Shown: positions 45,663 through 64,000, numbered from the stretch's first letter. The stretch is DNA of 64,000 nucleotides from an uncultured Solibacteraceae bacterium (GCA_964423815.1 CAYRGW010000014.1:505-64504); one strand, 5' to 3'. A program made the numbers and translations. The notes: generated by a model from the letters alone, not told the origin.

Positions 45663-48515
45663 ATGACAAGACGATTGATGCACGTGGCCGTGATGGCTTT
45701 GTGCTCGGCACTGGTGGTGGCAAATGCTTCCGCCCAGACGTTCACGGGACGTATTGAACTGACCGTGACGGATAGCACCGGCGCAGTTCTGCCCGGCGCG
45801 ACGGTCGAGCTCACCGGTCAGCAGACGGCGAATACCGTGTCCGACGCGCGGGGTGAGGCACGTTTCCTCAACCTGGCGCCTGGTCGCTACACGGTGGTCG
45901 CGAAGCTTTCGGGCTTCGGCGAATGGAAGACCGAGAACATCACGGTCAGCACGGGGCAGGTCGTGGCCTTGAAGGCCACGATGGCCGTTGGCGGCATTGC
46001 GACGTCGATTGACGTCACGGCCGGCGCGCCGACGATTGACCCCAAAAAACAGACGCAGTCGACGGTGGTCTCGTACGAAGAGCTGCAGTCGGTCCCGTCG
46101 TCGCGCGACCCCTGGGTTGTGCTGCAGACGGTGCCTGGCGTGGTTGTGGACCGCGTGAACGTTGGCGGCGCCGAATCGGGTCAGCAGTCGGGTTATCGCG
46201 CGAAGGGCGCGGGTTCCGGCGAAAACACGTGGAACATTGACGGCATTGCCATCACGGACATGTCGGCACTGGGTTCCTCGCCCACCTACTACGACTTCGA
46301 CATGTTCCAGGAAATGCAGGCCACCACGGGTGGCGCGGACGTGTCCAACGTCACGCCTGGTGTGTCGTTGAACTTCGTCCTCAAGAGTGGTTCGAACGCG
46401 CCACGCGGTTCCGCGCGCTGGTACGCCGAAGACGAAAAGTGGAAGATGCAGGCGAACAACATGCCCGCCGACCTCGCAGCCCTGATTGGTGGCAAGAGTG
46501 GCAAAGGCAACCGCATGCGCAAGTACATTGACAGCGGTTTTGAACTCGGCGGACCGATTGTGCGCGATCGCCTCTGGGCGTGGGGCGCGTACGGCAAGAC
46601 GGATGTCACCGTCGTGACCCTTGCCGACACACCCGACCAGACCATCCTTGAGAACTACTCGTTCAAGGCCACCGGCCAGGCGACACAGAATCTCCGCGGC
46701 AACTTCACCTACTACCGTGGTGACAAGATCAAGTTCGGTCGAAGCGCCGGCACGACTCGTCCGCCCGCCACGACGTGGAATCAGAGCGGTCCGACGCAAA
46801 TGTACAAAGGTGAAGCGAACCTCACGGTTGGCAACAACATGTTCCTGACGGCGCGCGCTGCCCACGTCTCGGGCGGGTTCTCCCTGACGCCTCAAGGTGG
46901 TCTCGACGTCAACATGATTTTTGCTGATGACGCGGGCATTGGCCGCAACAGCTGGTACGAATACGCGACGGTGCGTCCCCAGAACACGATGAACGTGGAA
47001 GGCAACTATTTCAGTGGCCGTCACGAACTGAAGGTTGGGTTCGGCTACCGCACGGCCGATGTCGAGTCGACCTACGCCGTGCCGGGTAACGGCGTCATCA
47101 CCTACCATGACGGCTATCCGAACATGATCGCGGAAATCACCGCGTGGAACCAGGTCTCGGGCACCACCGGCAAGTACATGAGCGGCTTCCTGTCGGACAC
47201 GATCTCGTTCGACCGTCTCACGCTCAACGTCGGGGTGCGCTGGGATCGCCAGTCATCCTCGGTCGCCGCGTATTCACAGGCGGGTAACCCGCTCCTGTCG
47301 GCCTTGCTGCCCAACCTGACGGGCAAGGCCGCCGATGACGTCATCGTGTGGAACTCGGTCACGCCGCGCATCGGCGCGACCTACGCGATCGACGATGCAC
47401 GCAAGACCATCGCACGTGCCAGCTACGCGAGCTTCGCGTCGCAGATGAACGCCGGCGCGGGCGGCTTCTTCTCGACCGTCGGCTCGTTCCGTGGCGTCTA
47501 CATCTACGACGTAGCCGACCTGAACGGCAACGGCACGGTGGATGCGGCCGAAATTGCCGGTCGCTCGGCGGAGAACTGGTACGGGTTCGACATCAACAAC
47601 CCGGCCAACGTCAGCACCCCGAACCACGTGGTTGGCGACTACAAGACGCCGCTCACGCAGGAGTTCATCCTGGGTGTGGACCGCGAGCTGATGGCCAACC
47701 TCGGCGTGTCGGCGAGCTACACGTTCCGCCACTTCTCGAACTTCAACTGGCGCCCGATCGAAGGACTGCGCGCTGACGACTACGTGCAGCGTGGCACCTA
47801 CACGGGTTCGCTCGCACCGGTGGGGCAGTTCTCCGTGCCGTTCTACGGCGTGAGCGCGCTGCCGGCCAACCGCACGCGTACCGAGTACATCGACCGCGAT
47901 GGCTACTCGCAGCGTTACCACGGCTTCGAAGTGTCGGCCACCAAGCGCATGTCCAACCGCTGGATGGCCCGCTTTGGCTTCTCGTGGAACGATCACCGCG
48001 AGTACTTCGACGGCAATAACTCGCGCACCGACCCGACCTCCACGCTGGCCAACCCGAACATCGACGGTGGTCATGTGATGGCCGCTTCGGGCGGTTCGGG
48101 CAAGAGCCAGATCTACATGGTGCTGCCGCAGTACCAGTTCGTGCTCAACGGTGTCTACCAGGCGCCCTGGGGTGTGAACCTCGGCCTCAACATGGTCAAC
48201 CGTCAGGGTTTCGCGATGCCGTACAGCCGCAGCAACGTGGCCACCGGCGACCCACTCGGCAACAACAAGAACCTGCTGCTTGTGGATGACGTCACGAAGT
48301 TCCGCCTGCCGGCGGTGACGTCGCTCGACCTGCGTCTCGGCAAGACGTTCAACATCCGCTCAACGACGGCCAACATCGACCTCGACGTGTTCAACGTGCT
48401 GAACTCGGCGACGGTGCTTGGACGCCAGTACGACCTCCGTCTCACGACGGCCGACAACGTTCGCGAAATCATGAATCCCCGCATTCTGCGCGTGGGCTTC
48501 CGCTTCGCGTTCTAA
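45663..48515 (+). CDS. TonB-dependent-receptor-like outer-membrane protein with CarboxypepD_reg domain (paralog A)
   Basis: 950 aa. Signal peptide ...ANASAQ. Then TFTGRIELTVTDSTGAVLPGATVELTG...RGEARFLNLAPGRYTV, a plug-like DPWVVLQTVPGVVVDRVNVGG, and C-terminal ...RVGFRFAF. About 70% identical at the N-terminus to the 57937-60879 protein, by eye. Confidence 0.85.
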   Translation: MTRRLMHVAVMALCSALVVANASAQTFTGRIELTVTDSTGAVLPGATVELTGQQTANTVSDARGEARFLNLAPGRYTVVAKLSGFGEWKTENITVSTGQVVALKATMAVGGIATSIDVTAGAPTIDPKKQTQSTVVSYEELQSVPSSRDPWVVLQTVPGVVVDRVNVGGAESGQQSGYRAKGAGSGENTWNIDGIAITDMSALGSSPTYYDFDMFQEMQATTGGADVSNVTPGVSLNFVLKSGSNAPRGSARWYAEDEKWKMQANNMPADLAALIGGKSGKGNRMRKYIDSGFELGGPIVRDRLWAWGAYGKTDVTVVTLADTPDQTILENYSFKATGQATQNLRGNFTYYRGDKIKFGRSAGTTRPPATTWNQSGPTQMYKGEANLTVGNNMFLTARAAHVSGGFSLTPQGGLDVNMIFADDAGIGRNSWYEYATVRPQNTMNVEGNYFSGRHELKVGFGYRTADVESTYAVPGNGVITYHDGYPNMIAEITAWNQVSGTTGKYMSGFLSDTISFDRLTLNVGVRWDRQSSSVAAYSQAGNPLLSALLPNLTGKAADDVIVWNSVTPRIGATYAIDDARKTIARASYASFASQMNAGAGGFFSTVGSFRGVYIYDVADLNGNGTVDAAEIAGRSAENWYGFDINNPANVSTPNHVVGDYKTPLTQEFILGVDRELMANLGVSASYTFRHFSNFNWRPIEGLRADDYVQRGTYTGSLAPVGQFSVPFYGVSALPANRTRTEYIDRDGYSQRYHGFEVSATKRMSNRWMARFGFSWNDHREYFDGNNSRTDPTSTLANPNIDGGHVMAASGGSGKSQIYMVLPQYQFVLNGVYQAPWGVNLGLNMVNRQGFAMPYSRSNVATGDPLGNNKNLLLVDDVTKFRLPAVTSLDLRLGKTFNIRSTTANIDLDVFNVLNSATVLGRQYDLRLTTADNVREIMNPRILRVGFRFAF

Positions 48516-48534
48516 TCGGTCTTCGACGTTCGAC

Positions 48535-48579
48535 CGGCCCCGGGATCCGACTCACGTCGGGGCCCGGGGCCTTTTTTTT
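48535..48579 (+). terminator. Rho-independent terminator of paralog A
   Basis: GC-rich hairpin GGCCCCCGGG...CCGAC-TCAC-GTCGG...CCCGGGGCC, followed immediately by T8 (48572-48579). It starts 20 nt after the stop. Confidence 0.7.
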
Positions 48580-48632
48580 ACGTCGGGTGTCTTTTTCCGC
48601 TCTAAGCGATGCAGAAAAAGACACCCGACGTC
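48580..48632. repeat. Palindromic repeat 'Z', copy 2 (inverted relative to copy 1)
   Basis: ACGTCGGGTGTCTTTTT (48580-48596) is complementary to AAAAAGACACCCGACGT (48615-48631). The 18-nt loop CCGCTCTAAGCGATGCAG is about 85% identical to the reverse complement of the copy-1 loop region, by eye. Confidence 0.8.
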
Positions 48633-48667
48633 TTAATCTGTGACCCGATTTCGTGCAGGATGTACAT

Positions 48668-49591
48668 ATGAAGAAACTTGTCCTCGCTGTGATGCTGATG
48701 TTGGTCGTGCCCGGGCTCGCGATCGCGCAGGAATGGCGCGGGCAGGGGCGGATCGCTGGAAAAATCACCGATGAGGCCGGCGTGGCCATCGAAGGCGTCG
48801 CCATCAAGGCCACAATGCCGTCGTCGGAAAACAGGGGGCCTGGCGCCCAGAAGTCCAACGCAAAGGGCGACTGGTCCATCGGGGGCATCGCCGGCGGATC
48901 GTGGGTGGTCGAGTTCAGCAAAGAGGGCTACAAGACCCGCACGATGACGGTGCCGGTCAGTGAAGGCAACCGTCTGCCTCCGGCCACGATTGTGTTGGAG
49001 AAGGTCGTGGTCGTGGTGGACCCCAACGACGTGATCCGGGAGCGACTGACGGTCGCCGCCGACCTCATGACGTCACGGAAGTACGCCGAGGCGCGCGCCA
49101 TCTATGAGGAGCTGTCGAAGGAATATCCGACGGTCAAACAGTTCAAGCCGCTGCTGGCGCGCGCGTTCCACGGCGAGGGCAACACGGCACGCGCCATCGA
49201 ATTGCTCAAGGAAGTGGTCGCTGACGACCCGACACTCGTGGAAGTGAAGGTGCTGCTTGGCACGTTGCAGATTGGCGCGGGTCAGATGGCCGAGGGCCAG
49301 GCGACGCTGGACTCCATCGACGCCGCGCGCATCACCGACCCCACCGTGTTCGTCAACATCGGCATCAGCCTGATGAACGACAAAAAACCCGCCGACGCCA
49401 TTACCTGGCTGACCAAGGGCGTGACGACCTTCCCGAAAGATGCCAGCGCGTACTACTACCGCGGCATTGCGCAGCTCTCACTGGGCAACACCGCCGAGGC
49501 CAAAGCCGACCTGGAGAAGTTCGTCTCAATCGCACCCGCCGACGCATCAGAGCTCGCGACGGCGAAGAAGATTCTGGAGACCATAAAGTAG
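48668..49591 (+). CDS. Secreted CarboxypepD_reg-like domain + TPR repeat protein
   Basis: Signal peptide MKKLVLAVMLMLVVPGLAIAQ. GRIAGKITDEAGVAIEGVAIKA...GDWSIGGIAGGSWVVEFSKEGY (CarboxypepD_reg-like), then TPR-like helices (YAEARAIYEEL..., AYYYRGIAQLSLGNTAEAKADLEKFV). ATG 48668 is preferred over the track GTG 48653. Confidence 0.8.
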   Translation: MKKLVLAVMLMLVVPGLAIAQEWRGQGRIAGKITDEAGVAIEGVAIKATMPSSENRGPGAQKSNAKGDWSIGGIAGGSWVVEFSKEGYKTRTMTVPVSEGNRLPPATIVLEKVVVVVDPNDVIRERLTVAADLMTSRKYAEARAIYEELSKEYPTVKQFKPLLARAFHGEGNTARAIELLKEVVADDPTLVEVKVLLGTLQIGAGQMAEGQATLDSIDAARITDPTVFVNIGISLMNDKKPADAITWLTKGVTTFPKDASAYYYRGIAQLSLGNTAEAKADLEKFVSIAPADASELATAKKILETIK

Positions 49592-49672
49592 GGCGTGACC
49601 TTCAGGTCCGCCGCTATGGCGCGGCTAAAGCCGCTGCCCTACGAGCGATGCAGAAAAAGACACCCGACGTCT
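49588..49672. repeat. Composite of repeats X + Y + right half of Z filling a whole convergent intergenic gap
   Basis: X is GTAGGGCGTGACCTTCAGGTCCGCC (49588-49612, overlapping the TAG stop). Y is CCGCTATGGCGCGGCTAAAGCCGCTGCCCTACGAG (49611-49645). The half-Z is AGCGATGCAGAAAAAGACACCCGACGTC (about 49644-49671), identical to the copy-2 right half. Confidence 0.8.
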
Positions 49673-49673
49673 T

Positions 49674-51689
49674 TTATCGCAGGCGCCGCAGCGCGTCAGC
49701 GGCCATCGTGAGGCCGGGCTCCAGGCGGAGCGCTTCGCGGTAGTGACGTTCGGCGACGTCGATCTGGCCGCGCGACTGGGCGATTTGTCCGAGCGCAAAG
49801 TGGCTGCGTGAGGGTTGATACCCCATCGTGATCAACTGCTCGAGCTGCTGCGTGGCGAGATCGAGACGATTCACACGGGAGGCTGCGCCCACAAGCAATA
49901 ACCGCGCGCGCGGGTTCGCCGGGTTCAGCGTGACCGCACGTTCGTAGGCGGCCACCGCCTCCGCCGGTCGTCCCTCGGCCTCAAGCACTCGTCCAGTGAC
50001 CAGCGCCACGTCGAAAGACGAAGGGTCGAGCGTGGTGGCGACGTCGACCCGGGCACGCGCGTCCGCGATCTGTCCGGTCGCCAGCAGCAATTCCGCCGCC
50101 GAGAGCTGTGGTGCGGCAGCGGCTGGGTTGAGCAGCGCGGCCATCTCGTATTCACCCAGCGCCTCGACCGGTCGTCCCATCCGTTCGTACGCTTCGCCGA
50201 GCAACTGGTGCAGGTCGTACGCGCGGTCGTTGATGCGGACCAGGTCCCGCAACTGGCGCACCGAGTCGTCGAGTCGACCGGCGCGAAGGTCGTCGATGGC
50301 CTCCGACAACAAACGTTTGAACGTGCGGCGCTCCTCAATCCGATCCTTCGGGTCAGGTCCTCGTTCGCCGTCGCTGGTGGGCAAGGGAGACGACGTGCCG
50401 ACGTACCCAAGGCTGCGCAGGCGCTCCATCGTCTCTCGATTGGGAGCGGTGGCCTGTGGCGCCTGTCCGCCAGTCAGTTCCCGGTCGAGCCGCGCGGCTT
50501 CAGCGACCATGCGCTCCCCAAGTGCGCGCTGCGCGTCGAACATATTGTCGGCCTCGCGCGGGTCCTTGGTGATCGCAAACAATTCCGGCCGCGGCGCATC
50601 AATGACCTTCCACCCATCGGCGCGGAGCGACCGCAGCTCACTCCAGCCGTAGTGCAGTTTCGGGTAATACGACTCGGTGTACGCGGCAGGAATGGTCTGG
50701 CGGGTACCACCGTCGAGGACGGTGCGGAGTGACTCGCCATCGAGACCGGTGACCGCAGGCAACCCCAGCAGATCCAATGTTGTGGGGACCAGATCGATCA
50801 CGCGCACCTGCTCCGTCACGACGTGCCCGGCCCGTGCCGCGGGCCCCGCGATGATCAGCGGCACCCGCATGACGGGTTCGTACAGGAACACGCCGTGTTC
50901 GTCCTCGCCGTGTTCACCGAGTGATTCTCCGTGGTCGGCCACGGCCATGATCAGACTGTCGTCAAACGTGCCGCGAGCCTTGAGCGCCTCGAGCACACGG
51001 CCGATCTGGTGATCGACGTAGGCGACCTCGCCGTCGTACGGGCTGGACACAAACTCCGTCCCGAAAGGAGCCGGCGCGGCATACGGCGCATGCGGGTCGT
51101 ACAGGTGCACCCACAGGAATGTCGACTGATCGACGGGCACCGTCGCGAGCCACTCCAGCGCGTCATCGACCACCGACGCACCGATACGTTCCGCGTTGGC
51201 CTCGCGCCCGGATTCCACACGATCAAAACCGGAGAACGTGGTGAACCCCTGCGCAAACCCGTAGGCGCGGTCGAGAACGAAGGCGCCGATAAAACCGCCG
51301 GTCGCAAAGCCGGCGGCGCTGAGATGTTCAGCCAGTGTGGTCGCCCGCTCCGGCAGCGGCGTCGTCGCGTTATCGCGCACACCAAAACGTGCGGGGTACT
51401 GCCCCGTGAAGATGGCCGCATGTGCCGGGCCCGTGATGGGCGCCGTGGTGACCGCGTCATCAAACCGCACGCCCAGTTGTGCCAGCGAATCGAGATGCGG
51501 GGTGCGGGCCTGGGACGCGCCGTAGGTGCCGATGTGGTCCGCGCGGGTCGTATCAAGCGTGAAGAGGACGACGTGCCTGGGTTGGCTGGCCGTCGCGCCG
51601 TTGCTGCTGACGATGACCCATGCCACGACACCGACCGCGAGCAGCACCCCGAAAAGAATGAGTGCACTGACCGACCGTTTGCGCATCAT
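49674..51689 (-). CDS. Membrane-anchored alkaline-phosphatase-superfamily ('sulfatase-like') enzyme fused to C-terminal TPR domain (paralog 1)
   Basis: 671 aa. N-terminal TM. LFTLDTTRADHIG (metal-ligand Asp), PITGPAHAAIFTGQYPARFGVRDN, ADHGESLGEHGEDEHG. The C-terminal ~230 aa are TPR repeats. Confidence 0.8.
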   Translation of the reverse strand: MMRKRSVSALILFGVLLAVGVVAWVIVSSNGATASQPRHVVLFTLDTTRADHIGTYGASQARTPHLDSLAQLGVRFDDAVTTAPITGPAHAAIFTGQYPARFGVRDNATTPLPERATTLAEHLSAAGFATGGFIGAFVLDRAYGFAQGFTTFSGFDRVESGREANAERIGASVVDDALEWLATVPVDQSTFLWVHLYDPHAPYAAPAPFGTEFVSSPYDGEVAYVDHQIGRVLEALKARGTFDDSLIMAVADHGESLGEHGEDEHGVFLYEPVMRVPLIIAGPAARAGHVVTEQVRVIDLVPTTLDLLGLPAVTGLDGESLRTVLDGGTRQTIPAAYTESYYPKLHYGWSELRSLRADGWKVIDAPRPELFAITKDPREADNMFDAQRALGERMVAEAARLDRELTGGQAPQATAPNRETMERLRSLGYVGTSSPLPTSDGERGPDPKDRIEERRTFKRLLSEAIDDLRAGRLDDSVRQLRDLVRINDRAYDLHQLLGEAYERMGRPVEALGEYEMAALLNPAAAAPQLSAAELLLATGQIADARARVDVATTLDPSSFDVALVTGRVLEAEGRPAEAVAAYERAVTLNPANPRARLLLVGAASRVNRLDLATQQLEQLITMGYQPSRSHFALGQIAQSRGQIDVAERHYREALRLEPGLTMAADALRRLR

Positions 51690-52957
51690 TTCACTGGCGT
51701 CGGAATCAGAAGCAGCGACGAGGGAAGGGCAAGATACCCACGCCGCGCACGGACGCTGATGCCCTCTCGTTTTACGCGCACCTCAATCGGTCTGTAGGTG
51801 CCGTCCAGCCTGGAGTTTTCAGGCTGGTATCCAATCACGTAGTACCGATTCGCATCGTCGGCCACCTCGACAAGGGCTTTGCCGATGTTGTTCTGGTTGC
51901 GGACAAAAAAGCCGCCGGTGTCCACCGAAAGGCTGTTGGGGGCGTCCTCGGTGAGATCGAAACGTGCCGGGCCGCCCGTCGGACTGTCGGCCAGCATCTG
52001 ATCGCCAATGCCGGCATTGGTCCCGCGATTCAGACCACGTACGTCAATCGCGTAGATTCGTGCGCCGGCGCGTGTGGTCTGACCTACGACAGACTGCAGG
52101 GCGCCCTCCATGTCCTGTGACACGAGTCCGTCACTCAGAAAGACGATGGTCTTGGGACCGGGGATGCGGGCGAGGCCGTTGGCGAGTGCGTTCATCGCCT
52201 TCAGTGTGTCGAGGGTGGAGCGCTGGCTCTCGGTGCGAAACCTGGAGGCTTTCTCGCGGACCTGGCCCTCAGCGCTCTGGCATGCGCTCTGGTCTTCGGC
52301 ACACGCCCGTATGATCACGCGCTGCAAGGCCTCGCGGTCCTGATCCGCCACGGCCAGCGCTTCACTCTCGTCACGGAAACGCGGCCACTCGCGCGTCAGT
52401 TCGTTCAGCCGGGCGCGGTTGTCGTTGTTCGGGCGGACGCTGGACGCCGCGTTCATCAACTCCGCGCGGACACTGGTCAGGCGGCCGTTGACCATCGTGC
52501 CGCCGGCCATCACGCCACCGAGATCCCCGTCTCTGAATTGCTCTTTGAGGAAGGTCGTCACCGCCAGTCGCGCGCGGTCAAAACCGCCGCCGGCTGTCAG
52601 GTGGTTCACATCGAACACAAAGATCCACGTTTGCCTGGCGGCCGAGATGGGTGGGCCCGCGGTGGTGCCTTCTGGTCCACGAGAGGTGACGAGCGGCCGT
52701 GCGGTGGCCGAGTCGCTCGCAGCCGGGCCCACAAAATACAACGCGCGAATTGTCTGAGGTTTTCCGCCCTCCATCACCTCAAAATCGTCGATGGTCAGGT
52801 CTTCGGCAAATCGCCCATCACGCGTGAAGGCGCGGACGTCGACCTCCACGATTTGTGTGGAGGCGGTGAATGTTGGTGGCTGCTGTTGCGGGGGCGTTTG
52901 CGCCGCCAGCGCCGCACCCAGCACCACGCACACAGACCCCAGAAGTGCACCCCGCAC
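51686..52957 (-). CDS. Secreted vWA-like protein (acidobacterial VWFA-related type)
   Basis: 423 aa. Signal peptide. N-terminal beta segment FTASTQIVEVDVRAF..DGRF..DLTIDDFEVMEGGKPQTI, then WIFVFDVNHL...IVFLSDG (vWA beta1/beta4-like). GTG start shares one base with the upstream stop. Confidence 0.7.
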   Translation of the reverse strand: MRGALLGSVCVVLGAALAAQTPPQQQPPTFTASTQIVEVDVRAFTRDGRFAEDLTIDDFEVMEGGKPQTIRALYFVGPAASDSATARPLVTSRGPEGTTAGPPISAARQTWIFVFDVNHLTAGGGFDRARLAVTTFLKEQFRDGDLGGVMAGGTMVNGRLTSVRAELMNAASSVRPNNDNRARLNELTREWPRFRDESEALAVADQDREALQRVIIRACAEDQSACQSAEGQVREKASRFRTESQRSTLDTLKAMNALANGLARIPGPKTIVFLSDGLVSQDMEGALQSVVGQTTRAGARIYAIDVRGLNRGTNAGIGDQMLADSPTGGPARFDLTEDAPNSLSVDTGGFFVRNQNNIGKALVEVADDANRYYVIGYQPENSRLDGTYRPIEVRVKREGISVRARRGYLALPSSLLLIPTPVK

Positions 52958-55548: not shown

Positions 55549-55557
55549 GAGGTGATT

Positions 55558-57747: not shown

Positions 57748-57856
57748 GTGAATGTGATCAAGTATAACGATCGTCCCCCAGACGGACCGTTGGATAGTGA
57801 CGTTCAACTTCTTGGTTTGGTCGAAGGGATCGCGCCGGACCCACCAGGTCCCGGAG

Positions 57857-57872: not shown

Positions 57873-57936
57873 CTACCCCCTGCAACGGTCCCGTGAGCAG
57901 GCGATGAGCGTCTGCTGTTCGGGAGTGGAGGAATAC

Positions 57937-60879
57937 ATGACACAACACATGGTGAGAGTGGTCCTGATGGTCCTTTGTCTCGCTGCCAGCGCAATGCCCG
58001 CATTCGCACAAACGTTTACGGGACGCATTGACGTGATGGTGGTGGATGGCACGGGGGCGGTGTTGCCGGGCGTCACGGTCGAGTTGACCGGGCCGCAAGC
58101 GACCAACGCCGTCACGAACGAGCGCGGGGAAGCACGTTTCCTGAATCTCGCGCCAGGGAAATACGCCGTGACAGCCAGACTGTCCGGCTTTGGCGACTAT
58201 CGCAATATCGACGTCCCGGTGGGTGCCGGTTCGATCGTGTCGCTGAAGGCGACGATGGCTGTGGCGGGTATGGCGACGTCGGTCGATGTGCGGGCGGTGA
58301 CGCCGGTCATCGAAACGAAGCGTCAGACGATTTCGACCAACGTATCGCTTGATGAGCTGCAGGGGATTCCGACGGCGCGCGACCCCTGGGTCGTGTTGCA
58401 GACGGTCCCCAGCGTGATTGTCGACCGTGTCAACGTGGGTGGGGCCGAGTCGGGTCAGCAGTCCAACTACGTGGCGAAAGGCGCCCGCGGCGGCGAAAAC
58501 ACGTGGAACATCGATGGCATCGCCATCACCGACATGGGCTCGCTTGGGTCGTCACCGACGTACTACGACTTCGACATGTTCCAGGAGATGCAGATGACGA
58601 CCGGTGGCGCGGATCCCACCACGCCAACGCCCGGTGTGCAGCTGAACTTCGTGCTGCGCGGCGGCACCAACTCCTGGCGTGGATCGGCGCGGTACTACTT
58701 CGAGAACAACGATCTGCAGTCCGACAACCTCTCCGACAGTCTGCGTGGGACGTTGGGCAGCTACAATCGCGTGAACACCTACAAGGACTACGGTTTTGAG
58801 TTCGGCGGTCCGATCCTCAAGAACCGTCTGTTCATGTGGGGCGCGTTTGGCAAGACCGAACCCGAGATGGACATCTACACGTACAGCGCGAACACGCGCA
58901 ATCTGGTGGTGCCGTCCAAGGGCTGTGGCCCGACGGAACGGATGACCGCCGCCGGGGGCGCGTACGCACTGAGCTCGCGCGACTGCACCACGCTCGAGAA
59001 CTACTCGGCCAAACTGAATGCGGAAATCAACGCGAACACGCGCGCGAATTTCACCTTCTTCCAGGGAAACAAACTGAAGGCTGGTCGTGGCGCCTCAGCC
59101 ACACGTACGGCCGAGACGTCGTGGAACCAGGACGGTCCGACATCGATGTACAAGGGCGAGATCAACCGAACCGTCGGCAACAGCCTGTTCCTGACCGCGC
59201 GGTACGCCCATGTGGAAAGTGAGTTCAGCCTCGTGCCGATCGGCGGCATGGACGCGCTGCACTATCGTGACGATGCCCGGGTGCACAACGGAAGCTACTT
59301 CCAGTACGCGACCAAGCGGCCGCAGGACAACGTCAACGCCGAGGGCAACTTCTTCAAGGGCAACCACGAGCTCAAGTTCGGCTTCGGGTGGCGGTCGGCG
59401 GCGGTGACATCCGAAAGCGGCTGGCCCGGTGTCGGGATCCAGACGCGCCACGCGACGTATCCGGCCATGACGGCCGTCATCGTGCGCGACTGGGCATCAG
59501 CTTCAGAGGGCAAATACTGGAGCGCCTATGCGGGCGACACCATCAGCTTTGATCGGCTGACGGTGAACCTCGGCCTGCGCTGGGATCGTTCGATCAGCAG
59601 CATCGCGGCGGCCTCGGTCCCCGGCAACACGGTCGTGCCGAACCTGCTGCCCGCGCTTGATGCGCCTGCGGTGAAGGACGCGATTGTCTGGAACACGATC
59701 ACACCGCGTGTGGGTGTGACGTACGCGCTCAACGACTCGCGGAAGACCATCGCGCGCGCAAGTTATTCGACGTTTGCGTCGCAGTTGGACGCCAATCGAT
59801 CGGCACTCATTGCCTCAGCGATTCCCTATTACTCCTATGTCTACTACCGCGTGACCGATACCAACGGCAACCGGGCGGCGGACGCGGCGGAAGTGGCGGC
59901 GGGAACGTTCCTGGGGACCGCTGGATTTGATCCCAGCAATCCGCTGGGTGGCAACCCGGACACCATTGGCGACTACGGCGTGCCGCGCACGCACGAAGTG
60001 GTGCTGGGCCTCGAACACGAACTGCGCGCCAATTTCGGCCTGTCAGGGTCATTTACGTGGCGGAAGTACACGAACTTCAACTGGCTGCACCACCGCGGTG
60101 TGACCGGCGCGAATTTCGTGAGCGCCGGCAACGTGACCGGAACCGTGGCCCCGATCGGCAGCTACTCGATTCCCCTCTACAACGTGGATCCGGCGGCCCT
60201 GCCGGCAGACAACGGTCGCGTCTATGAGAACCGTCCGGGGTACACGCAGCAGTTCTGGGGGCTTGAGTTTGCCGCCACCAAACGTATGTCCAACAACTGG
60301 ATGATGCGCGCGGGGTTCTCGACTGGCGAACACACCGAAGACTTCAAGGACGATGGAGCGAGGTTTGATCCCACGCCAAACCTGCCGCTCGCGGGAACGC
60401 CACTTGCCTCACCCAACGTGAGCGGCGGTCTTGTGCTGACGCAGACCGCGGGCAGCGGCAAGAGCAACGTGTTCCTGGTGGCGCCGAAGTATCAGTTCAT
60501 CCTGACGTCGGCCTACCAGGCGCGATACGGCATCAACCTCGGCATGAACTACGTGGCACGCCAGGGGTATTCGACGCCGTATTACCTCGGTGAACACGCC
60601 GGCACCGAGGATGACTTGAACCCGAGCGGACGCAACATCCTGCTGTCAACCGACATCGGGGATGCCCGCCTGCCGATGGTGCATTCGTTTGATGCCCGCA
60701 TCAGCAAGGTGCTGAAGGTGAGCCGTCTGACGGCAGACGTCGACCTCGACTTCTTCAACCTGTTCAACACGTCGACGATCCTCGGCCGCCAGTTTGATCT
60801 CAATGCGACCAACGGCGACCAGCCGCTCGAGATCATGAACCCGCGGGTGGTGCGACTGGGATTGCGCGTGAGGTTCTGA
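57937..60879 (+). CDS. TonB-dependent-receptor-like outer-membrane protein with CarboxypepD_reg domain (paralog B)
   Basis: 980 aa. MTQHMVRVVLMVLCLAASAMPAFAQTFTGRIDVMVVDGTGAVLPGVTVELTG... and C-terminal ...LGLRVRF. The RBS context GGAGGAATACATGACA nearly matches paralog A (GGAGGATACATGACA). Trimmed from 57748-60879. Confidence 0.85.
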   Translation: MTQHMVRVVLMVLCLAASAMPAFAQTFTGRIDVMVVDGTGAVLPGVTVELTGPQATNAVTNERGEARFLNLAPGKYAVTARLSGFGDYRNIDVPVGAGSIVSLKATMAVAGMATSVDVRAVTPVIETKRQTISTNVSLDELQGIPTARDPWVVLQTVPSVIVDRVNVGGAESGQQSNYVAKGARGGENTWNIDGIAITDMGSLGSSPTYYDFDMFQEMQMTTGGADPTTPTPGVQLNFVLRGGTNSWRGSARYYFENNDLQSDNLSDSLRGTLGSYNRVNTYKDYGFEFGGPILKNRLFMWGAFGKTEPEMDIYTYSANTRNLVVPSKGCGPTERMTAAGGAYALSSRDCTTLENYSAKLNAEINANTRANFTFFQGNKLKAGRGASATRTAETSWNQDGPTSMYKGEINRTVGNSLFLTARYAHVESEFSLVPIGGMDALHYRDDARVHNGSYFQYATKRPQDNVNAEGNFFKGNHELKFGFGWRSAAVTSESGWPGVGIQTRHATYPAMTAVIVRDWASASEGKYWSAYAGDTISFDRLTVNLGLRWDRSISSIAAASVPGNTVVPNLLPALDAPAVKDAIVWNTITPRVGVTYALNDSRKTIARASYSTFASQLDANRSALIASAIPYYSYVYYRVTDTNGNRAADAAEVAAGTFLGTAGFDPSNPLGGNPDTIGDYGVPRTHEVVLGLEHELRANFGLSGSFTWRKYTNFNWLHHRGVTGANFVSAGNVTGTVAPIGSYSIPLYNVDPAALPADNGRVYENRPGYTQQFWGLEFAATKRMSNNWMMRAGFSTGEHTEDFKDDGARFDPTPNLPLAGTPLASPNVSGGLVLTQTAGSGKSNVFLVAPKYQFILTSAYQARYGINLGMNYVARQGYSTPYYLGEHAGTEDDLNPSGRNILLSTDIGDARLPMVHSFDARISKVLKVSRLTADVDLDFFNLFNTSTILGRQFDLNATNGDQPLEIMNPRVVRLGLRVRF

Positions 60880-60909
60880 TCCCAGTACGAAGATAGATGC
60901 ACAGCGGGA

Positions 60910-60957
60910 CATGGAGGGCTGGGAGTTTTCTTGAAAAAAAACTCTCAGTCCTTCATG
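60910..60957 (+). terminator. Long strand-specific hairpin after paralog B
   Basis: CATGGAGGGCTGGGAGTTTT (60910-60929) pairs with AAAACTCTCAGTCCTTCATG (60938-60957). That is 20 positions with 3 G:U pairs on the plus-strand RNA; the same positions would be C:A mismatches on the minus strand. A T-rich run lies about 15 nt downstream. Confidence 0.4.
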
Positions 60958-60981
60958 TCTCGGTGTGAATTATTTTTTGGA

Positions 60982-61773
60982 CTAACGCGCGATTGTCGCA
61001 ATCACAAGCGCGTAGGTCGTGCGCGCGGTTTTTTCGAGATACGCCAGCCGCGTGCCGTCGATCGACCAGGCGGGCAGGGTCACCGCCTTGGTGGACTCGA
61101 TGCGTCGGGCTTTCCCTCCGCGATCCATCACGGCAAGTTGTCCCGACTTGTCCGCAAACGCGATGAGGCCGACGCCTTTGGGCGCCCATCCAAACGTGAG
61201 GCCGGGCACGATCGGATGATTTTCCCAGTACCCCACCACTTCGCCGCCCAGCACCATGGAGTAGACGTTCACATTGCCCGACTGCGCGGCCGCAACCGCG
61301 ACGGTCTCTGCAGAAATAGCGCCGCCGGTGTCCACGCCGCCACGGGCGAGATCACCACCCATGGGAGTGGCAGTCGCCGATTGAATCTTCTTTTCGGACC
61401 TGACGTCGATCTTCCACGATGGGTCGTCTGGCGAGGCCTGTCCTGACTTCCACTGCAAATAGGCGACGGCCCATGAGGGTGGGGTATCCACCTGGCGTGG
61501 TGCGCCGCCGGTGACCGGAATCACATAATGAAACGTGTTCCTGACACTGGCATCCCGATTGGCTTCGTACGTCTGCAGATACAACTCGGTCTGATCCGGG
61601 GACCAGGCCAGTTGCCGGACGAGTGGACCTTTCAGACGCCGCATGTCGAACTCGACCACCGGCGCGGACGGGGTGACGACGACGGACGCGGCGGTGGCCG
61701 GAGGGGCCTGCGCCGCCTGGCCCTCGGCAGGGCACAGCGCGAGGACACACGACAGCAATAGTGTGGACATCAT
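60982..61773 (-). CDS. Secreted hypothetical protein with PD40/TolB-like propeller repeats
   Basis: 263 aa. Signal peptide MMSTLLLSCVLALCPAEGQA. Repeats LAWSPDQTELY and PAWSIDGTRLAY resemble WD40-like PD40 motifs. It starts 2 nt after the upstream stop. Confidence 0.6.
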   Translation of the reverse strand: MMSTLLLSCVLALCPAEGQAAQAPPATAASVVVTPSAPVVEFDMRRLKGPLVRQLAWSPDQTELYLQTYEANRDASVRNTFHYVIPVTGGAPRQVDTPPSWAVAYLQWKSGQASPDDPSWKIDVRSEKKIQSATATPMGGDLARGGVDTGGAISAETVAVAAAQSGNVNVYSMVLGGEVVGYWENHPIVPGLTFGWAPKGVGLIAFADKSGQLAVMDRGGKARRIESTKAVTLPAWSIDGTRLAYLEKTARTTYALVIATIAR

Positions 61774-61775
61774 CC

Positions 61776-63872
61776 TCAGAATCTACCACCGGCGAGCCGC
61801 GCGCGGACGCGGGCGATATCGGCCGCAAAAAACGCCGGCGGCGCCGTGGCGACAAAACGTTCCCCATATCGCCGCGCTTCACCGGCCTGTCCGCTCTCGA
61901 ACAATTCCATCGTCAAATTAAAAAGTGCGTTGAAGTCGTTGGGGTCGAGGCTCACGGCCTTGCGCCAGGCGTCCAGGGCTTCGGGCAGACGGTTGAGCCT
62001 TGTGAGCGCCACGCCCAGGCCGGTGTAGGCGCCGGCAAGCGTGGGGTCGACCGAGAGTGCCCGTCGGAACGACGCTTCGGATGCGGCGAAGTCCCCGGTG
62101 CGCAGCTGGAGCGTCGCGATGTTCTGGTGCGAGAGCGCGCTGGTGGAATCGACCTGCAACGCGCGTTCAAACGTGCGCATCGCATCAGCAACACGCCCGC
62201 TCTGCCCGTACGCGATCCCCAGCGCATTGAGGACCTCGCTGTCGTCGGCCGACATCTCCTCGAGCAGTGGGATCGCTCGCGCGGCCGCACCCGATTCCGC
62301 GAGGTAGATCCCGAGCTTCACGCGGATGTCCCGTTGTGTGAGTCCGCGCGCCAGCGCCGATTCCAGGATGTTGATGGCGTCTGCGGGCCGCCCCGTCTGC
62401 CAGTAGACAAACGCGAGGTATCGATACGCGTCGGCGGTATCAGGTCGTCGGGTGATCACCGCGCGGAACGCCGCCACGGATTCCTCATGACGGCCGCGCG
62501 AATACAGATCGCCGGCATCGTGCAACATCTTGTCGAGATCGATCAGCTGTTTGGGGTCGTCGGCTTCCGTGTATCGCTCCCGCGCGGGTGCGGGACTGCC
62601 GCCGATATACCCGAGTGCCCTGAGGCGTTCGAGCACCGCCGTGGACTCCTCGCCGGGTTGCCCCGGTGGCGCCGTATCAAACGTCCGCAACGTATTAAAG
62701 AGCACCTGCGTGCGATCGGTGTCCGCCGACGCGAGGTTTCGTTGCTCGGCCGGGTCCGTGGTGAGGTCATACCGCTCGGGGATCGGCAGGTCGATGTATT
62801 TGTCGCGATCAACGAGCACACCTCGCAGTGGTGCCCACCCACGTGACAGGTTCGCCGTCATCGCTTCGAAGTACGACGGCCGCGTCTCACCCCGGCCTGT
62901 GGTGATGACGTCCAGGAGCGACGTGCCCGCGAGGGTGGTGTCGGCTGGTGCCCCGACCGCGTCAAGGACCGTCGGCACCACGTCCACGTGCCGCACGGGT
63001 GTGTCGATCGTGCGTCCCCCGGACGCCGCCGCGCCGTCGGGTGTGACCTCCGCAATAATGAGCGGCACCCGCAACGTGGCGTCATACGCAAAAATGCCAT
63101 GGGTGAGTTCGCCATGTTCACCGAGGCTTTCGCCGTGGTCGGCCGTGACGATGACGAGTGTGGGGCGCGACAACGTCCGGAGCTGATCCAGCAGTGGCGC
63201 GAGCGCAGCGTCGGTCCAGGCGACTTCCCCGGCATAAGGATCAGCTGCGTACTGCGTGTCGTAGGGGGCCGGCGGACGATACGGCGCGTGGGGATCAAAG
63301 ACGTGCACCCAGCTGAACCACGGCGTCTGTTGTTGCCCGATCCACGCCGTGGCGGCACCCACAACCTGATCGGCCCGTCGCTCCGGCAGCTCGAAGTCCA
63401 CGGTCGGACCCGACTCGGGCAGGCGGTCGTCGTAGACATCAAATCCCTGGTTCAGTCCGAAGCGCTGATCGAGGGGGAACGCGCCGACAAACGCGCCGGT
63501 GGCAAATCCCAGTGCTTTGAGGCGTGTGGCCAGGGTGACCTCGCCCGCCCGCACGCGATACCCGGTGTTGTCGCGAACACCATGTTGGTACGGATACAAC
63601 CCTGTGAAGAGGCTGGCGTGCGACGGCAGCGTGACGACCGCGTGTGCGTGCGCAAACGTAAATCGTGCGCCGGATGCCGCGAGCGCGTCGAGTCGCGGTG
63701 TCGCAGCGCGTCCGCCGTACGACCCGAGCGCGTCACCACGCAAGGTATCGATCGAGATGACCAGCACATTGCGATCCGCTGTGCGCTGCAGCGTGAAGGC
63801 CGGTGCCGGCCAGAACCACCACGCCGCCACAGCGACCGCCGCGGCAATCGCACCCCCGTATATCGCCTTCAT
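61776..63872 (-). CDS. Membrane-anchored AP-superfamily ('sulfatase-like') enzyme + TPR (paralog 3)
   Basis: 698 aa. TM, then VISIDTLRGDALG, VVTLPSHASLFTGLYPYQHGVRDN, ADHGESLGEHGELTHG, and a C-terminal TPR domain. Confidence 0.8.
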   Translation of the reverse strand: MKAIYGGAIAAAVAVAAWWFWPAPAFTLQRTADRNVLVISIDTLRGDALGSYGGRAATPRLDALAASGARFTFAHAHAVVTLPSHASLFTGLYPYQHGVRDNTGYRVRAGEVTLATRLKALGFATGAFVGAFPLDQRFGLNQGFDVYDDRLPESGPTVDFELPERRADQVVGAATAWIGQQQTPWFSWVHVFDPHAPYRPPAPYDTQYAADPYAGEVAWTDAALAPLLDQLRTLSRPTLVIVTADHGESLGEHGELTHGIFAYDATLRVPLIIAEVTPDGAAASGGRTIDTPVRHVDVVPTVLDAVGAPADTTLAGTSLLDVITTGRGETRPSYFEAMTANLSRGWAPLRGVLVDRDKYIDLPIPERYDLTTDPAEQRNLASADTDRTQVLFNTLRTFDTAPPGQPGEESTAVLERLRALGYIGGSPAPARERYTEADDPKQLIDLDKMLHDAGDLYSRGRHEESVAAFRAVITRRPDTADAYRYLAFVYWQTGRPADAINILESALARGLTQRDIRVKLGIYLAESGAAARAIPLLEEMSADDSEVLNALGIAYGQSGRVADAMRTFERALQVDSTSALSHQNIATLQLRTGDFAASEASFRRALSVDPTLAGAYTGLGVALTRLNRLPEALDAWRKAVSLDPNDFNALFNLTMELFESGQAGEARRYGERFVATAPPAFFAADIARVRARLAGGRF

Positions 63873-64000
63873 CGTCCTCCTGCCGCCGCCGCACGTACGG
63901 CGGCCGCGCGTTCGGGCAGCCCGAACATGATGTAGAGATCGCCGGCCGTTTTATAGGTCTCCGGCGACGGCGCGACCTGCAGCAACTCGACAATCGCGCG
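63869..64000 (-). CDS. 3' end of an upstream gene (partial, runs off the right edge), function unknown
   Basis: Hand translation of the minus strand gives ...RAIVELLQVAPSPETYKTAGDLYIMFGLPERAAAVRAAAAGGR*. The TGA forms an ATGA overlap with ATG 63872. Confidence 0.4.
   Translation of the reverse strand, partial: RAIVELLQVAPSPETYKTAGDLYIMFGLPERAAAVRAAAAGGR

What the first reader, a model, noticed from the sequence alone, without database searches (positions are those of the whole stretch)
45663..64000. Paralog-rich envelope locus of unknown function: receptor-like barrels, AP-superfamily-TPR enzymes, vWA-like proteins and a propeller
Nearly every gene in these 18 kb is a secreted or envelope protein without an assignable function, and the parts are duplicated.
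- Two CarboxypepD_reg-fronted TonB-receptor-like barrels lie at 45663-48515 and 57937-60879. They are about 70% identical at the N-terminus by eye and share an RBS context.
- Three membrane-anchored alkaline-phosphatase-superfamily enzymes are each fused to a C-terminal TPR array (49674-51689, 55558-57747, 61776-63872).
- Two vWA-like proteins lie at 51686-52957 and 52957-55548; the second also ends in TPR repeats.
- A CarboxypepD_reg-TPR protein lies at 48668-49591 and a PD40-propeller protein at 60982-61773.
- The four genes from 57747 to 49674 are joined by a 9-nt gap and by 1- and 4-nt overlaps, so they look like one translationally coupled operon. That operon is divergent from barrel B.
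The combination of OM barrel, periplasmic TPR/vWA scaffolds and inner-membrane-anchored hydrolases suggests a trans-envelope capture-and-processing machine. It has no SusD, no glycoside hydrolase, no MoxR ATPase and no TonB/ExbBD in the window. I know of no characterised system with this composition.
Basis: partly seen in the sequence, partly recalled or inferred. Interest (0 to 1): 0.7.

Follow-up and report, generated by a model that had tools for sequence, protein, structure and literature searches.

The report
Conserved acidobacterial TonB-barrel, pseudo-sulfatase, VWA operon
This 18-kb stretch is a real gene cluster, conserved across two classes of soil and sediment Acidobacteriota, that pairs a special outer-membrane TonB-type barrel with membrane-tethered "sulfatase-like" enzymes that cannot be sulfatases, plus odd VWA-like proteins, and nobody has yet worked out what it does.

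Summary
All genes and domain calls of the finding hold. The source is a Vicinamibacterales (Acidobacteriota) genome.

The combination is not a chance juxtaposition.
- The set Sulf-TPR x2-3, VWFA x2, propeller, CarboxypepD_reg-TPR and barrel A recurs in at least 15 Vicinamibacterales genomes, down to about 50% identity. It also recurs where the flanking genes differ.
- A colinear version (barrel, CarboxypepD_reg-TPR, Sulf-TPR x1-3, often VWFA x1-3) occurs in class Thermoanaerobaculia.
- All five barrel-seeded look-ups showed it.

- The conserved barrel partner is A. Barrel B is a lineage-specific opposite-strand insertion.
- The locus runs past the window edge.
- The "sulfatases" carry an invariant Thr-x-Pro-x-His in place of Cys/Ser-x-Pro-x-Arg (166 of 166 homologues where the motif is covered). 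They are therefore Thr-nucleophile phosphoesterase or phosphotransferase candidates.
- The VWA domains lack the canonical MIDAS motif.
- Thermoanaerobaculia orthologues of the enzymes are mostly lipoproteins, not membrane-anchored by a helix.

Best reading (about 0.4): a TonB-dependent utilisation-type locus for a phosphoester-bearing substrate. I found no description of it in the literature.

The parts
45663..48515 (+). Barrel A. An Oar-subclass TonB-dependent-transporter-like outer-membrane protein: signal peptide, CarboxypepD_reg N-terminal extension, TonB-box-like TSIDVTA, plug, barrel. It is the conserved barrel partner of the cluster.
   Evidence: Pfam hits. Orthologues at 61-92% identity next to the cluster in 13 loci. 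Homologues of this subfamily at 32-38% identity sit next to Sulf-TPR genes in Thermoanaerobaculia. The TonB-box region is conserved.
48536..48634 (+). Two hairpins after barrel A. The first is GC-rich with a T-run (48536-48573). The second has a 21-bp stem (48580-48631), whose right arm is part of a 30-nt repeat.
48668..49591 (+). Secreted CarboxypepD_reg-TPR protein. It directly follows the barrel in most loci of both classes.
   Evidence: Pfam. Synteny. Signal peptide ending ...AIA/QE.
49644..49673 (+). Second exact copy of the 30-nt repeat AGCGATGCAGAAAAAGACACCCGACGTCTT. It lies in the convergent intergenic space.
   Evidence: 0 copies expected by chance.
49674..51689 (-). Sulf-TPR1. N-terminal hydrophobic anchor, PF00884-fold domain with a Thr nucleophile motif (ITGPAH), and a C-terminal TPR array.
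51686..52957 (-). VWFA-1. A secreted TIGR03436 protein: beta-sandwich plus VWA fold with a long helical insert. The MIDAS motif is replaced by FDxxHxT. It has lost the TPR tail that its roughly 700-aa orthologues carry.
52957..55548 (-). VWFA-2-TPR. A secreted protein with a TIGR03436 domain (residues 30-414), an unassigned middle region (about 415-750) and a C-terminal TPR (757-859).
55558..57747 (-). Sulf-TPR2. Anchor, Thr-type PF00884 domain (QTLPSH) and TPR.
57937..60879 (+). Barrel B. A paralogue of barrel A (51% identity) inserted on the opposite strand inside the operon. It is present in only some orthologous loci.
60982..61773 (-). Secreted 263-aa beta-rich protein with TolB/PD40-like blades. 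It is specific to Vicinamibacterales, and its position in the cluster varies between genomes.
61776..63872 (-). Sulf-TPR3. Thr-type PF00884 domain (VTLPSH) and a long TPR array.
63869..64000 (-). 3' end of Sulf-TPR4 (710 aa in L018 and L019), cut by the window edge. Its stop codon overlaps the Sulf-TPR3 start (ATGA).

Best explanation
SHOWN
- This is one conserved, co-inherited envelope gene cluster of Acidobacteriota, found in the classes Vicinamibacteria and Thermoanaerobaculia.
- Its constant core is a distinct subfamily of Oar-type TonB-dependent-transporter-like barrels encoded next to Sulf-TPR enzyme genes (usually two or more), usually with a secreted CarboxypepD_reg-TPR protein in between.
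- The enzymes have a sulfatase (PF00884) fold, but the formylglycine motif is replaced by an invariant Thr-x-Pro-x-His. The sulfate-binding Arg and Lys positions are replaced by invariant His.
- One to three MIDAS-less TIGR03436 VWA-like proteins, often TPR-tailed, are frequent members. They are always present in Vicinamibacterales.

INFERRED MECHANISM
- The barrel, gated by TonB through its conserved TonB-box-like segment, moves a large substrate across the outer membrane.
- The enzymes are tethered by a helix or a lipid anchor and held near the barrel through TPR contacts, possibly with the CarboxypepD_reg domains. They act as metal-dependent Thr-nucleophile phospho(di)esterases on that substrate.
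- This would make the cluster an acidobacterial counterpart of TBDT-centred utilisation loci such as the Flavobacterium phosphate-utilisation (PUS) clusters.
- The released phosphate or small product would need no dedicated inner-membrane transporter in the locus.
- The VWFA-TPR proteins are proposed substrate-binding or scaffolding subunits.
For: Cluster conservation:
- Searches show about 15 Vicinamibacterales genomes with 50-93% amino-acid identity. Gene order is partly shuffled: the propeller moves and barrel B comes and goes.
- In L016 and L017 the flanking genes are unrelated, yet the cluster is kept.
- Sulf-seeded metagenome scan: 16 loci carry an A/B-type barrel beside the Sulf genes. 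Overall 27 of 39 loci of at least 9 kb have an Oar-type barrel within 2.5 kb of a Sulf gene, against about 18% expected from a crude baseline.
- Barrel-seeded look-ups: 5 of 5 show barrel, usually CarboxypepD_reg-TPR, then Sulf-TPR x1-3.
- VWFA pairs follow the Sulf genes in L031, L033 and L102, and a single one in L101.

Enzyme chemistry:
- The alignment to solved sulfatases places Thr at the Cys/Ser nucleophile position and His at the Arg position.
- D49, T89, P91 (162 of 166), H93, H199, H204, D253-H254, H261 and H266 are invariant or nearly so in all 165 homologues from the fetched loci plus the four paralogues of this genome, wherever the motif is covered.
- From my own knowledge, the DHGESLGEHG...H pattern resembles the Thr/Zn phosphoethanolamine transferases.

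Barrel and localisation:
- The barrel keeps the CarboxypepD_reg extension, plug and a conserved (I/V)(T/D)VTA segment.
- Every product has a signal peptide, hydrophobic anchor or lipobox.

Known analogue: TBDT-type (SusC-like PusC) transporters co-localised with periplasmic phosphodiesterases and monoesterases in Flavobacterium (PMC8115612).
Against: - No expression, activity or localisation data exist.
- No Pho-related gene, regulator or inner-membrane transporter is consistently linked in the flanks seen.
- Long TPR arrays on every component and paired MIDAS-less VWA proteins are not features of known nutrient-utilisation loci. They fit assembly or scaffold complexes better.
- The Oar prototype of this barrel class is needed for protein export, not import (PMC6434023).
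- Thr-nucleophile PF00884 enzymes that have been characterised (EptA/MCR, LtaS) are transferases acting on envelope components.
- Direction of transport and the substrate are pure inference.
Confidence: 0.4

Rival explanations
1. Envelope assembly, export or modification complex. The Oar-type barrel exports or surface-displays cluster-encoded secreted proteins (VWFA, CarboxypepD_reg-TPR), as Oar does for PopC. The TPR-bearing Thr-type enzymes, and the neighbouring PMT_2/GT-C-TPR glycosyltransferase, act as transferases that decorate these proteins or another envelope polymer with phospho-groups or sugars. The TPR arrays serve as substrate-recognition or scaffold modules.
For: [quoted passage not shown]
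- Every component has TPR or CarboxypepD_reg interaction modules.
- The VWFA proteins have signal peptides and long low-confidence loops.
- A PMT_2-TPR gene lies next to the cluster here and in L003.
- From my own knowledge, the characterised Thr-type PF00884 enzymes are transferases.
- No catabolic or uptake genes are linked.
Against: - VWFA genes are missing from some Thermoanaerobaculia loci that keep barrel and enzymes (L104, L105), so they cannot be the universal cargo.
- The enzymes lack the multi-helix membrane domain that lipid-donor transferases (EptA, LtaS) use. They have one helix or a lipid anchor.
- By sequence they are closest to soluble hydrolases: S1 sulfatases and phosphonate monoester hydrolases.
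- PMT_2-TPR is present in only two loci.
Confidence: 0.3
2. Sulfated-glycan utilisation locus. As automated annotation ('sulfatase', 'arylsulfatase') would suggest, the enzymes desulfate polysaccharides imported by the barrel.
For: - PF00884 hits of 145-165 bits, and the best NCBIfam and PDB matches are arylsulfatases, choline sulfatases and carrageenan sulfatases.
- A TBDT next to the enzymes resembles marine polysaccharide-utilisation loci.
Against: - The defining C/S-x-P/A-x-R formylglycine motif is replaced by T-x-P-x-H in all 166 family members where the motif is covered. Thr cannot be converted to formylglycine (established enzymology, my knowledge).
- No glycoside hydrolase, SusD, or formylglycine-generating or anSME maturase appears in the window or in any related locus inspected.
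Confidence: 0.03
3. Chance neighbourhood. The genes are members of families that are hugely expanded in Acidobacteria (Oar-type barrels, TIGR03436 VWFA, TPR proteins) and merely happen to sit together, preserved by recent common ancestry.
For: - TonB-receptor and VWA families are among the large paralogue families of Solibacter (PMC3174227).
- In close relatives the TetR/FadB flank is conserved too, so part of the synteny is simple inheritance.
Against: - The cluster persists with unrelated flanks (L016, L017) and in a different class with a different gene order.
- The barrel next to the enzymes belongs to a specific subfamily: 32-38% identity to barrel A or B, against 27% over the N-terminal third only for the other Oar-type barrel of this window, 21467-24787.
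- No Sulf, VWFA or propeller family member occurs in the other 45 kb of the window.
- Adjacency statistic: P about 2e-12 against a crude baseline.
Confidence: 0.02

Closest known systems
Phosphate utilisation system (PUS) gene clusters of Flavobacterium (PusC/PusD plus periplasmic phosphodiesterases and monoesterases; PMC8115612), and Bacteroidota PULs in general
   Same: - An outer-membrane TonB-dependent barrel with a CarboxypepD_reg-type N-terminal extension is encoded beside several membrane-tethered or periplasmic hydrolase-fold enzymes of the phosphoesterase type.
- Enzyme paralogues sit in tandem.
- No dedicated inner-membrane transporter is strictly needed if phosphate is the product.
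   Different: - There is no SusD/PusD lipoprotein.
- The enzymes are a Thr-type offshoot of the sulfatase family, each fused to a TPR array.
- Additional CarboxypepD_reg-TPR and MIDAS-less VWA-TPR proteins are present.
- The phylum is different.
- No evidence of phosphate regulation exists.
Oar, the Myxococcus xanthus TonB-dependent transporter required for PopC secretion (PMC6434023)
   Same: The barrel has the same architecture: signal peptide, PF13620 CarboxypepD_reg extension, TonB box, plug, large barrel.
   Different: - Oar sits in a TonB/ExbBD cluster, whereas this barrel sits with enzymes and VWA proteins.
- The direction of transport here is unknown.
S1 formylglycine sulfatases and phosphonate monoester hydrolases (PF00884; e.g. 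PDB 6pt6, 4upl, 2vqr)
   Same: - They are the best sequence matches (E 1e-31 to 1e-22).
- They share the fold and the metal-binding Asp and Asp-His positions.
   Different: - The nucleophile is Thr instead of Cys/Ser (formylglycine).
- Arg and Lys of the sulfate pocket are replaced by His.
- There is an N-terminal membrane tether and a C-terminal TPR array.
Thr-nucleophile PF00884 transferases (EptA/MCR-1 phosphoethanolamine transferases, LtaS)
   Same: - Thr nucleophile.
- DHGE-x-LG-x-x-G...H motif with extra His residues. This is from my own knowledge of these families, supported by weak NCBIfam hits over residues 215-268.
   Different: - Those enzymes have a five-helix membrane domain that presents a lipid donor, whereas these have one helix or a lipid anchor.
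- Overall similarity is far lower than to sulfatases.
Bat (Bacteroides aerotolerance) / MoxR-VWA-TPR operons
   Same: - Paired VWA proteins together with TPR proteins in the envelope.
- BatB is among the Foldseek hits of the VWFA-1 model.
   Different: - There is no MoxR ATPase and no DUF58 protein.
- The VWA domains lack MIDAS.
- A barrel and AP-superfamily enzymes are present.
Inter-alpha-inhibitor heavy chain type VIT-VWA proteins (PDB 6fpy)
   Same: It is the best structural match of the VWFA-1 model: an N-terminal beta-sandwich followed by a VWA fold.
   Different: - The TM-score is only about 0.3.
- There is no MIDAS.
- There is a large helical insertion (residues 164-262).
- The protein is bacterial and periplasmic or secreted.

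Membership tests
S1 (formylglycine-dependent) sulfatases | C/S-x-P/A-x-R motif supplying the formylglycine nucleophile | tested here: not met
   The alignment to PDB sulfatases puts ITGPAH at the motif position. Thr and His are invariant in 166 of 166 homologues where the motif is covered.
S1 (formylglycine-dependent) sulfatases | PF00884 fold with N-terminal metal-binding Asp and the D-H/N pair | tested here: met
   PF00884 at 145-165 bits over the full model. D49 and D253-H254 are invariant.
Alkaline-phosphatase superfamily Thr-nucleophile phosphoesterases and phosphotransferases | Thr at the nucleophile position next to a metal site, with catalytic activity on phosphate esters | tested here: inconclusive
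   The Thr and six invariant His residues are present. Activity and metal content cannot be tested in silico.
TonB-dependent transporters, Oar subclass | PF13620 CarboxypepD_reg N-terminal extension before the plug | tested here: met
   66.8 bits (A) and 48.8 bits (B) against a cut-off of 32.3. The subclass is defined in PMC6434023.
TonB-dependent transporters, Oar subclass | Plug domain (PF07715) and 22-strand barrel | tested here: inconclusive
   Plug scores 25.7 bits (A, just above the 23.9 cut-off) and 20.8 bits (B, below it). The barrel is matched by PF25183 at 99 and 82 bits but only in part, and there is no PF00593 hit. No structure was predicted.
TonB-dependent transporters, Oar subclass | TonB box between the extension and the plug | tested here: inconclusive
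   The segment TSIDVTA (A), TSVDVRA (B) and ITVTAEAP (Thermoanaerobaculia) is conserved at the expected place. Binding to TonB is untested.
TIGR03436 acidobact_VWFA | Score above the NCBIfam cut-off over the whole 324-position model | tested here: met
   178.1 and 150.0 bits against a cut-off of 81.25, covering model positions 1-323 and 2-321.
Canonical VWA (metal-dependent adhesion) domains | MIDAS motif D-x-S-x-S plus downstream Thr and Asp | tested here: not met
   The motif reads FDVNHLT and FDQAHIT here, and FD(L/V)xN(S/A) in Thermoanaerobaculia. There is no significant Pfam VWA hit. The VWA fold itself is supported by Foldseek hits to BatB and CMG2, with target-normalised TM-scores of 0.55-0.6.
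Bat / MoxR-VWA systems | MoxR AAA+ ATPase and DUF58 gene next to the VWA genes | tested here: not met
   Neither is present in the window or in any related locus inspected.
SusC/SusD polysaccharide utilisation loci | SusD-family lipoprotein gene adjacent to the barrel, with CAZymes in the locus | tested here: not met
   There are no SusD or glycoside-hydrolase Pfam hits. The gene after the barrel is a CarboxypepD_reg-TPR protein with a type-I signal peptide and no lipobox.
TolB / PD40 beta-propellers | Six-bladed PD40 propeller (PF07676 repeats) | tested here: inconclusive
   The window protein has no Pfam hit. A few homologues carry PF07676 or PF26549. The AF2 model (pLDDT 82.6) hits TolB at E 5e-6, but with TM-score 0.27 and rmsd 17 A. 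At 263 aa it is short for a full six-blade propeller (my estimate).

The most novel reading that the evidence does not exclude
The cluster encodes a previously unrecognised TonB-powered envelope machine of Acidobacteriota. An Oar-type barrel works outward, and the TPR-tethered Thr-type 'pseudo-sulfatases' are phospho-group transferases that decorate the MIDAS-less VWA proteins, or another surface polymer, during export. This would be a new secretion-and-modification system rather than a nutrient-uptake locus.
Probability: 0.15. Interest if true: 0.8.

Novelty: new variant of a known kind. Interest (0 to 1): 0.55.

Why it matters
- Vicinamibacterales and Thermoanaerobaculia are abundant but poorly studied soil, groundwater and sediment bacteria. 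The barrel subfamily alone has 1,344 representatives at 50% identity with E of at most 1e-30.
- The cluster gives a concrete, conserved genomic context to three 'expanded but function-less' acidobacterial families: Oar-type barrels, TIGR03436 VWFA, and Sulf-TPR.
- It flags a systematic annotation error. These PF00884 proteins are counted as sulfatases in metagenome surveys, yet they cannot make formylglycine.
- If the enzymes are phosphodiesterases coupled to a TonB-dependent barrel, this would be an unrecognised route of organic-phosphorus acquisition in dominant soil taxa.
- If the barrel exports, it would extend the single Oar/PopC precedent for TBDT-dependent secretion.

Tried and rejected
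- An exact-sequence look-up of Sulf-TPR1 found nothing. The source contigs were reached through the propeller protein instead.
- A PDB sequence search with VWFA-1 and with barrel A gave no significant hit.
- A profile search with VWFA-2-TPR matched only its TPR tail. The middle 335 residues have no Pfam or PDB match.
- tblastn missed the diverged VWFA genes of Thermoanaerobaculia. They were recovered only with NCBIfam and a custom HMM.
- An Exo_endo_phos gene next to the barrel in L016 looked like support for a phosphodiester substrate, but it is not recurrent, so I dropped it.
- FG-GAP proteins upstream of the barrel in L101 and L102 are not found in L031 or L033, so I dropped them too.
- L013, a 39%-identical VWFA paralogue, has none of the partner genes.
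- There is no Rfam family or tRNA in the window, and no sigma-70-like promoter match in the locus.
- Seven of the eight literature searches run (TIGR03436, sulfatase+TPR+Acidobacteria, CarboxypepD_reg, Vicinamibacteria, Thr-nucleophile sulfatase, and others) found no description of this cluster; the eighth was the Oar search.
- The sulfatase-PUL reading was rejected on the motif test.
- The chance-juxtaposition reading was rejected on cross-class conservation.

Full report
**1. Observation**

The nine ORFs exist at the stated coordinates.

Pfam and NCBIfam reproduce nearly every domain call.
- Barrels A (45663-48515) and B (57937-60879) carry a CarboxypepD_reg extension, a weak Plug match and a partial OMP_b-brl_4 barrel match.
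- 48668-49591 is CarboxypepD_reg plus TPR.
- 49674-51689, 55558-57747 and 61776-63872 are PF00884 'Sulfatase' domains (145-165 bits) followed by TPR arrays.
- 51686-52957 and 52957-55548 match TIGR03436 acidobact_VWFA (178 and 150 bits, cut-off 81). They have no Pfam VWA hit.
- 60982-61773 has no Pfam hit.

Barrels A and B are 51% identical overall and 59-68% identical in the N-terminal 120-300 residues. They share the TGGAGGA(A)TACATGAC start context.

With the longest-ORF starts, the minus-strand genes are joined by a 9-nt gap and by 1-nt and 4-nt overlaps. Other gene callers pick slightly later starts.

Every product begins with a signal peptide or a hydrophobic anchor.

HMMs for the Sulf, VWFA and propeller families hit nothing in the other 45 kb of the window. 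That part encodes respiratory complexes, a beta-oxidation operon with a TetR regulator, and other housekeeping genes. It has no TonB, ExbBD, MoxR, SusD or glycoside hydrolase.

**2. Where it comes from and how far it extends**

A scan of species-representative genomes with VWFA-1 returned Vicinamibacterales (Acidobacteriota) MAGs.

The propeller protein is 100% identical to a protein on groundwater-metagenome contigs. Those contigs show that the window edge cuts the locus. Upstream of Sulf-TPR3 lie, in order:
- a fourth Sulf-TPR, whose stop codon overlaps the Sulf-TPR3 start;
- a third CarboxypepD_reg barrel;
- a PMT_2 (GT-C glycosyltransferase)-TPR gene;
- a fourth barrel.

**3. Is the combination conserved?**

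Yes. In 15 genome loci plus two complete-genome-scale contigs, the following block recurs at 50-93% amino-acid identity:

Sulf-TPR3 - [propeller] - [barrel B] - Sulf-TPR2 - VWFA-2-TPR - [propeller] - VWFA-1 - [Sulf-TPR1] - [CarboxypepD_reg-TPR] - barrel A

Three observations show this is more than inherited synteny.
- In L016 and L017 the flanks are unrelated (no TetR/FadB), yet the cluster is intact.
- The propeller gene changes position and copy number while staying inside the cluster.
- Barrel B is present in only about half of the loci and sits on the opposite strand inside the operon. The constant barrel partner is therefore A, not B.

VWFA-1 orthologues in the more distant genomes are about 700 aa with a TPR tail. 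The window copy has lost that tail.

**4. Beyond the order**

A metagenome scan seeded with the catalytic domains of the four Sulf paralogues returned 80 loci.
- Sixteen carry a barrel of the A/B subfamily (32-38% identity; HMM score 500-680) right next to the Sulf genes. The usual order is barrel, CarboxypepD_reg-TPR, Sulf-TPR x2-3, all on one strand.
- Thirteen more carry a generic Oar-type barrel somewhere in the locus, eleven of them within 2.5 kb of a Sulf gene.
- Overall, 27 of 39 loci of at least 9 kb have a barrel within 2.5 kb. A crude baseline predicts about 18%.

The two large genes after the Sulf pair in L031 and L033 have no Pfam hit but are TIGR03436 proteins (150-171 bits). tblastn had missed them.

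Homologues of the L031 barrel are named Thermoanaerobaculia in NCBI records.

Five look-ups seeded with such barrels all showed barrel followed by Sulf-TPR x1-3, four of them with a CarboxypepD_reg-TPR gene directly after the queried barrel; in L103 that gene follows a second tandem barrel instead (L101-L105).
- VWFA genes follow in L101 (one) and L102 (two confirmed; a third gene of similar size runs off the locus end and was not tested).
- VWFA genes are absent in L104 and L105.

The widest core is therefore barrel plus Sulf-TPR (usually two or more), usually with CarboxypepD_reg-TPR. VWFA is a frequent member and constant in Vicinamibacterales. The propeller is specific to Vicinamibacterales. 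The barrel subfamily is large: 1,344 representatives at 50% identity with E of at most 1e-30.

**5. What the parts are**

*Enzymes.*
- The closest solved relatives are S1 sulfatases and phosphonate monoester hydrolases (E 1e-31 to 1e-22).
- The alignment places Thr at the Cys/Ser (formylglycine) position and His at the Arg position.
- I checked the 165 homologues from the fetched loci plus the four paralogues of this genome. Wherever the motif is covered, the following are invariant or nearly so: D49, T89-x-P-x-H93, H199, H204, D253-H254-G-E, H261, E263 and H266.
- This is an active site under strong purifying selection.
- It cannot form formylglycine (established enzymology). By analogy with NPP, EptA/MCR-1 and LtaS (my knowledge), it points to metal-dependent phosphoryl transfer through a Thr nucleophile.
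- In the window the enzymes have an N-terminal helix-like anchor. In Thermoanaerobaculia most have a lipobox Cys. Tethering is conserved, but the membrane is not.

*Barrels.* They have the Oar-subclass architecture (PMC6434023). A conserved TonB-box-like segment sits between the extension and the plug.

*VWFA-1.*
- The AlphaFold2 model (pLDDT 77.5) is a beta-sandwich plus a VWA fold with a roughly 100-residue helical insert.
- The best Foldseek matches are inter-alpha-inhibitor heavy chain, BatB and CMG2.
- The MIDAS motif D-x-S-x-S is replaced by invariant F-D-x-x-H-x-T here and by F-D-x-x-N-S/A in Thermoanaerobaculia.

*Propeller.* The model (pLDDT 82.6) hits TolB at E 5e-6 but with TM-score 0.27. 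It has TolB-like blades, but it is not demonstrably a full propeller.

**6. Mechanism**

What is shown is a co-inherited envelope cluster built around a TBDT-like barrel and Thr-type AP-superfamily enzymes.

My preferred inference (about 0.4) is a utilisation-type locus.
- TonB-gated passage of a large phosphoester-bearing substrate is coupled to hydrolysis by tethered enzymes.
- These enzymes are held near the barrel through TPR and CarboxypepD_reg contacts.
- The VWFA-TPR proteins act as binders or scaffolds.
- The nearest characterised logic is the Flavobacterium PUS clusters, which pair TBDT-type (SusC-like PusC) transporters with periplasmic phosphodiesterases (PMC8115612).

The main rival (about 0.3) is an export or modification complex in the manner of Oar/PopC, with the enzymes acting as transferases. 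In its favour:
- TPR arrays are everywhere in the cluster.
- The VWA proteins are paired and lack MIDAS.
- A GT-C-TPR gene is a neighbour.
- No catabolic or transport genes are linked.

Against it:
- VWFA genes are not universal.
- The enzymes lack a lipid-donor membrane domain.

A sulfated-glycan locus is excluded by the motif test. Chance juxtaposition is excluded by cross-class conservation. The confidences given to the four named readings sum to about 0.75; the rest is for functions I have not named.

**7. Novelty**

No NCBIfam model names the barrels, and only generic models hit the enzymes. Seven of the eight literature searches run found no description of the cluster; the eighth was the Oar search. 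Each component belongs to a known superfamily, and 'TBDT plus enzymes' is a known organisational principle. I therefore rate it a new variant of a known kind, moderately interesting.

**8. Limits**

- All functional statements are inference from sequence, predicted structure and gene context.
- Start codons are uncertain in this high-GC DNA.
- The baseline for the adjacency statistic is crude.
- The taxonomy of metagenome loci rests on names attached to homologues.

Noticed in passing
window 48605-48634 and 49644-49673: There is an exact 30-nt direct repeat, AGCGATGCAGAAAAAGACACCCGACGTCTT, flanking the CarboxypepD_reg-TPR gene (0 copies expected by chance). The first copy forms the right arm of a 21-bp hairpin (48580-48600 / 48611-48631). 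It could be a duplicated terminator, a REP-like element or a recombination scar. Its meaning is unknown.
   Followed up: partly
window 57937-60879 (barrel B), compared with L003, L004, L007, L008, L011, L012, L016, L017: Barrel B is an opposite-strand insertion that splits an otherwise colinear minus-strand operon. It is absent from about half of the orthologous loci, so it looks like a recent duplication of barrel A (51% identity) dropped into the operon.
   Followed up: yes
L019 231-2225 (beyond the window's right edge) and L003: A PMT_2 (GT-C, ArnT/PMT-like) glycosyltransferase fused to a TPR array lies two genes beyond Sulf-TPR4. This is another periplasm-facing enzyme with a TPR tail, reminiscent of eukaryotic TMTC O-mannosyltransferases. 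It was seen next to the cluster in only two loci.
   Followed up: partly
L101-L105 (Thermoanaerobaculia), Sulf-TPR N-termini: Seven of the nine orthologous enzymes with a complete called N-terminus have lipobox-like N-termini (for example ...TLSCGRR, ...LASCGRF, ...ALGCRRE) without Asp at +2. They are therefore predicted lipoproteins, whereas the Vicinamibacterales enzymes have a helix-like anchor.
   Followed up: partly
window 51686-52957 versus P0039-P0118: VWFA-1 of this genome (423 aa) lacks the roughly 280-aa C-terminal TPR tail that its orthologues in more distant Vicinamibacterales have.
   Followed up: partly
L001 9325-11327: In the closest relative, the Sulf-TPR1 orthologue appears as two tblastn pieces in different frames (query residues 1-121 and 126-667). 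This may be a frameshift or an assembly error.
   Followed up: no
window 18960-21260: A single 766-aa ORF combines COX1 (CcoN-like) and FixO (CcoO) domains, which suggests a fused cbb3-type oxidase subunit. It sits beside FixG, FixH and a P-type ATPase.
   Followed up: no
window 30417-35211: There are three consecutive PQQ_2/BamB-like beta-propeller genes (439, 484 and 741 aa) on the minus strand, next to an ADOP-like MacB/FtsX permease (27213-30047). These are further examples of acidobacterial paralogue runs.
   Followed up: no
L103 10001-23081: Two barrel-plus-enzyme sets lie in tandem in one Thermoanaerobaculia MAG: barrel then Sulf-TPR, followed by barrel, CarboxypepD_reg-TPR and Sulf-TPR x2. 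L028 likewise has two A/B-type barrels. This suggests modular duplication of the unit.
   Followed up: no
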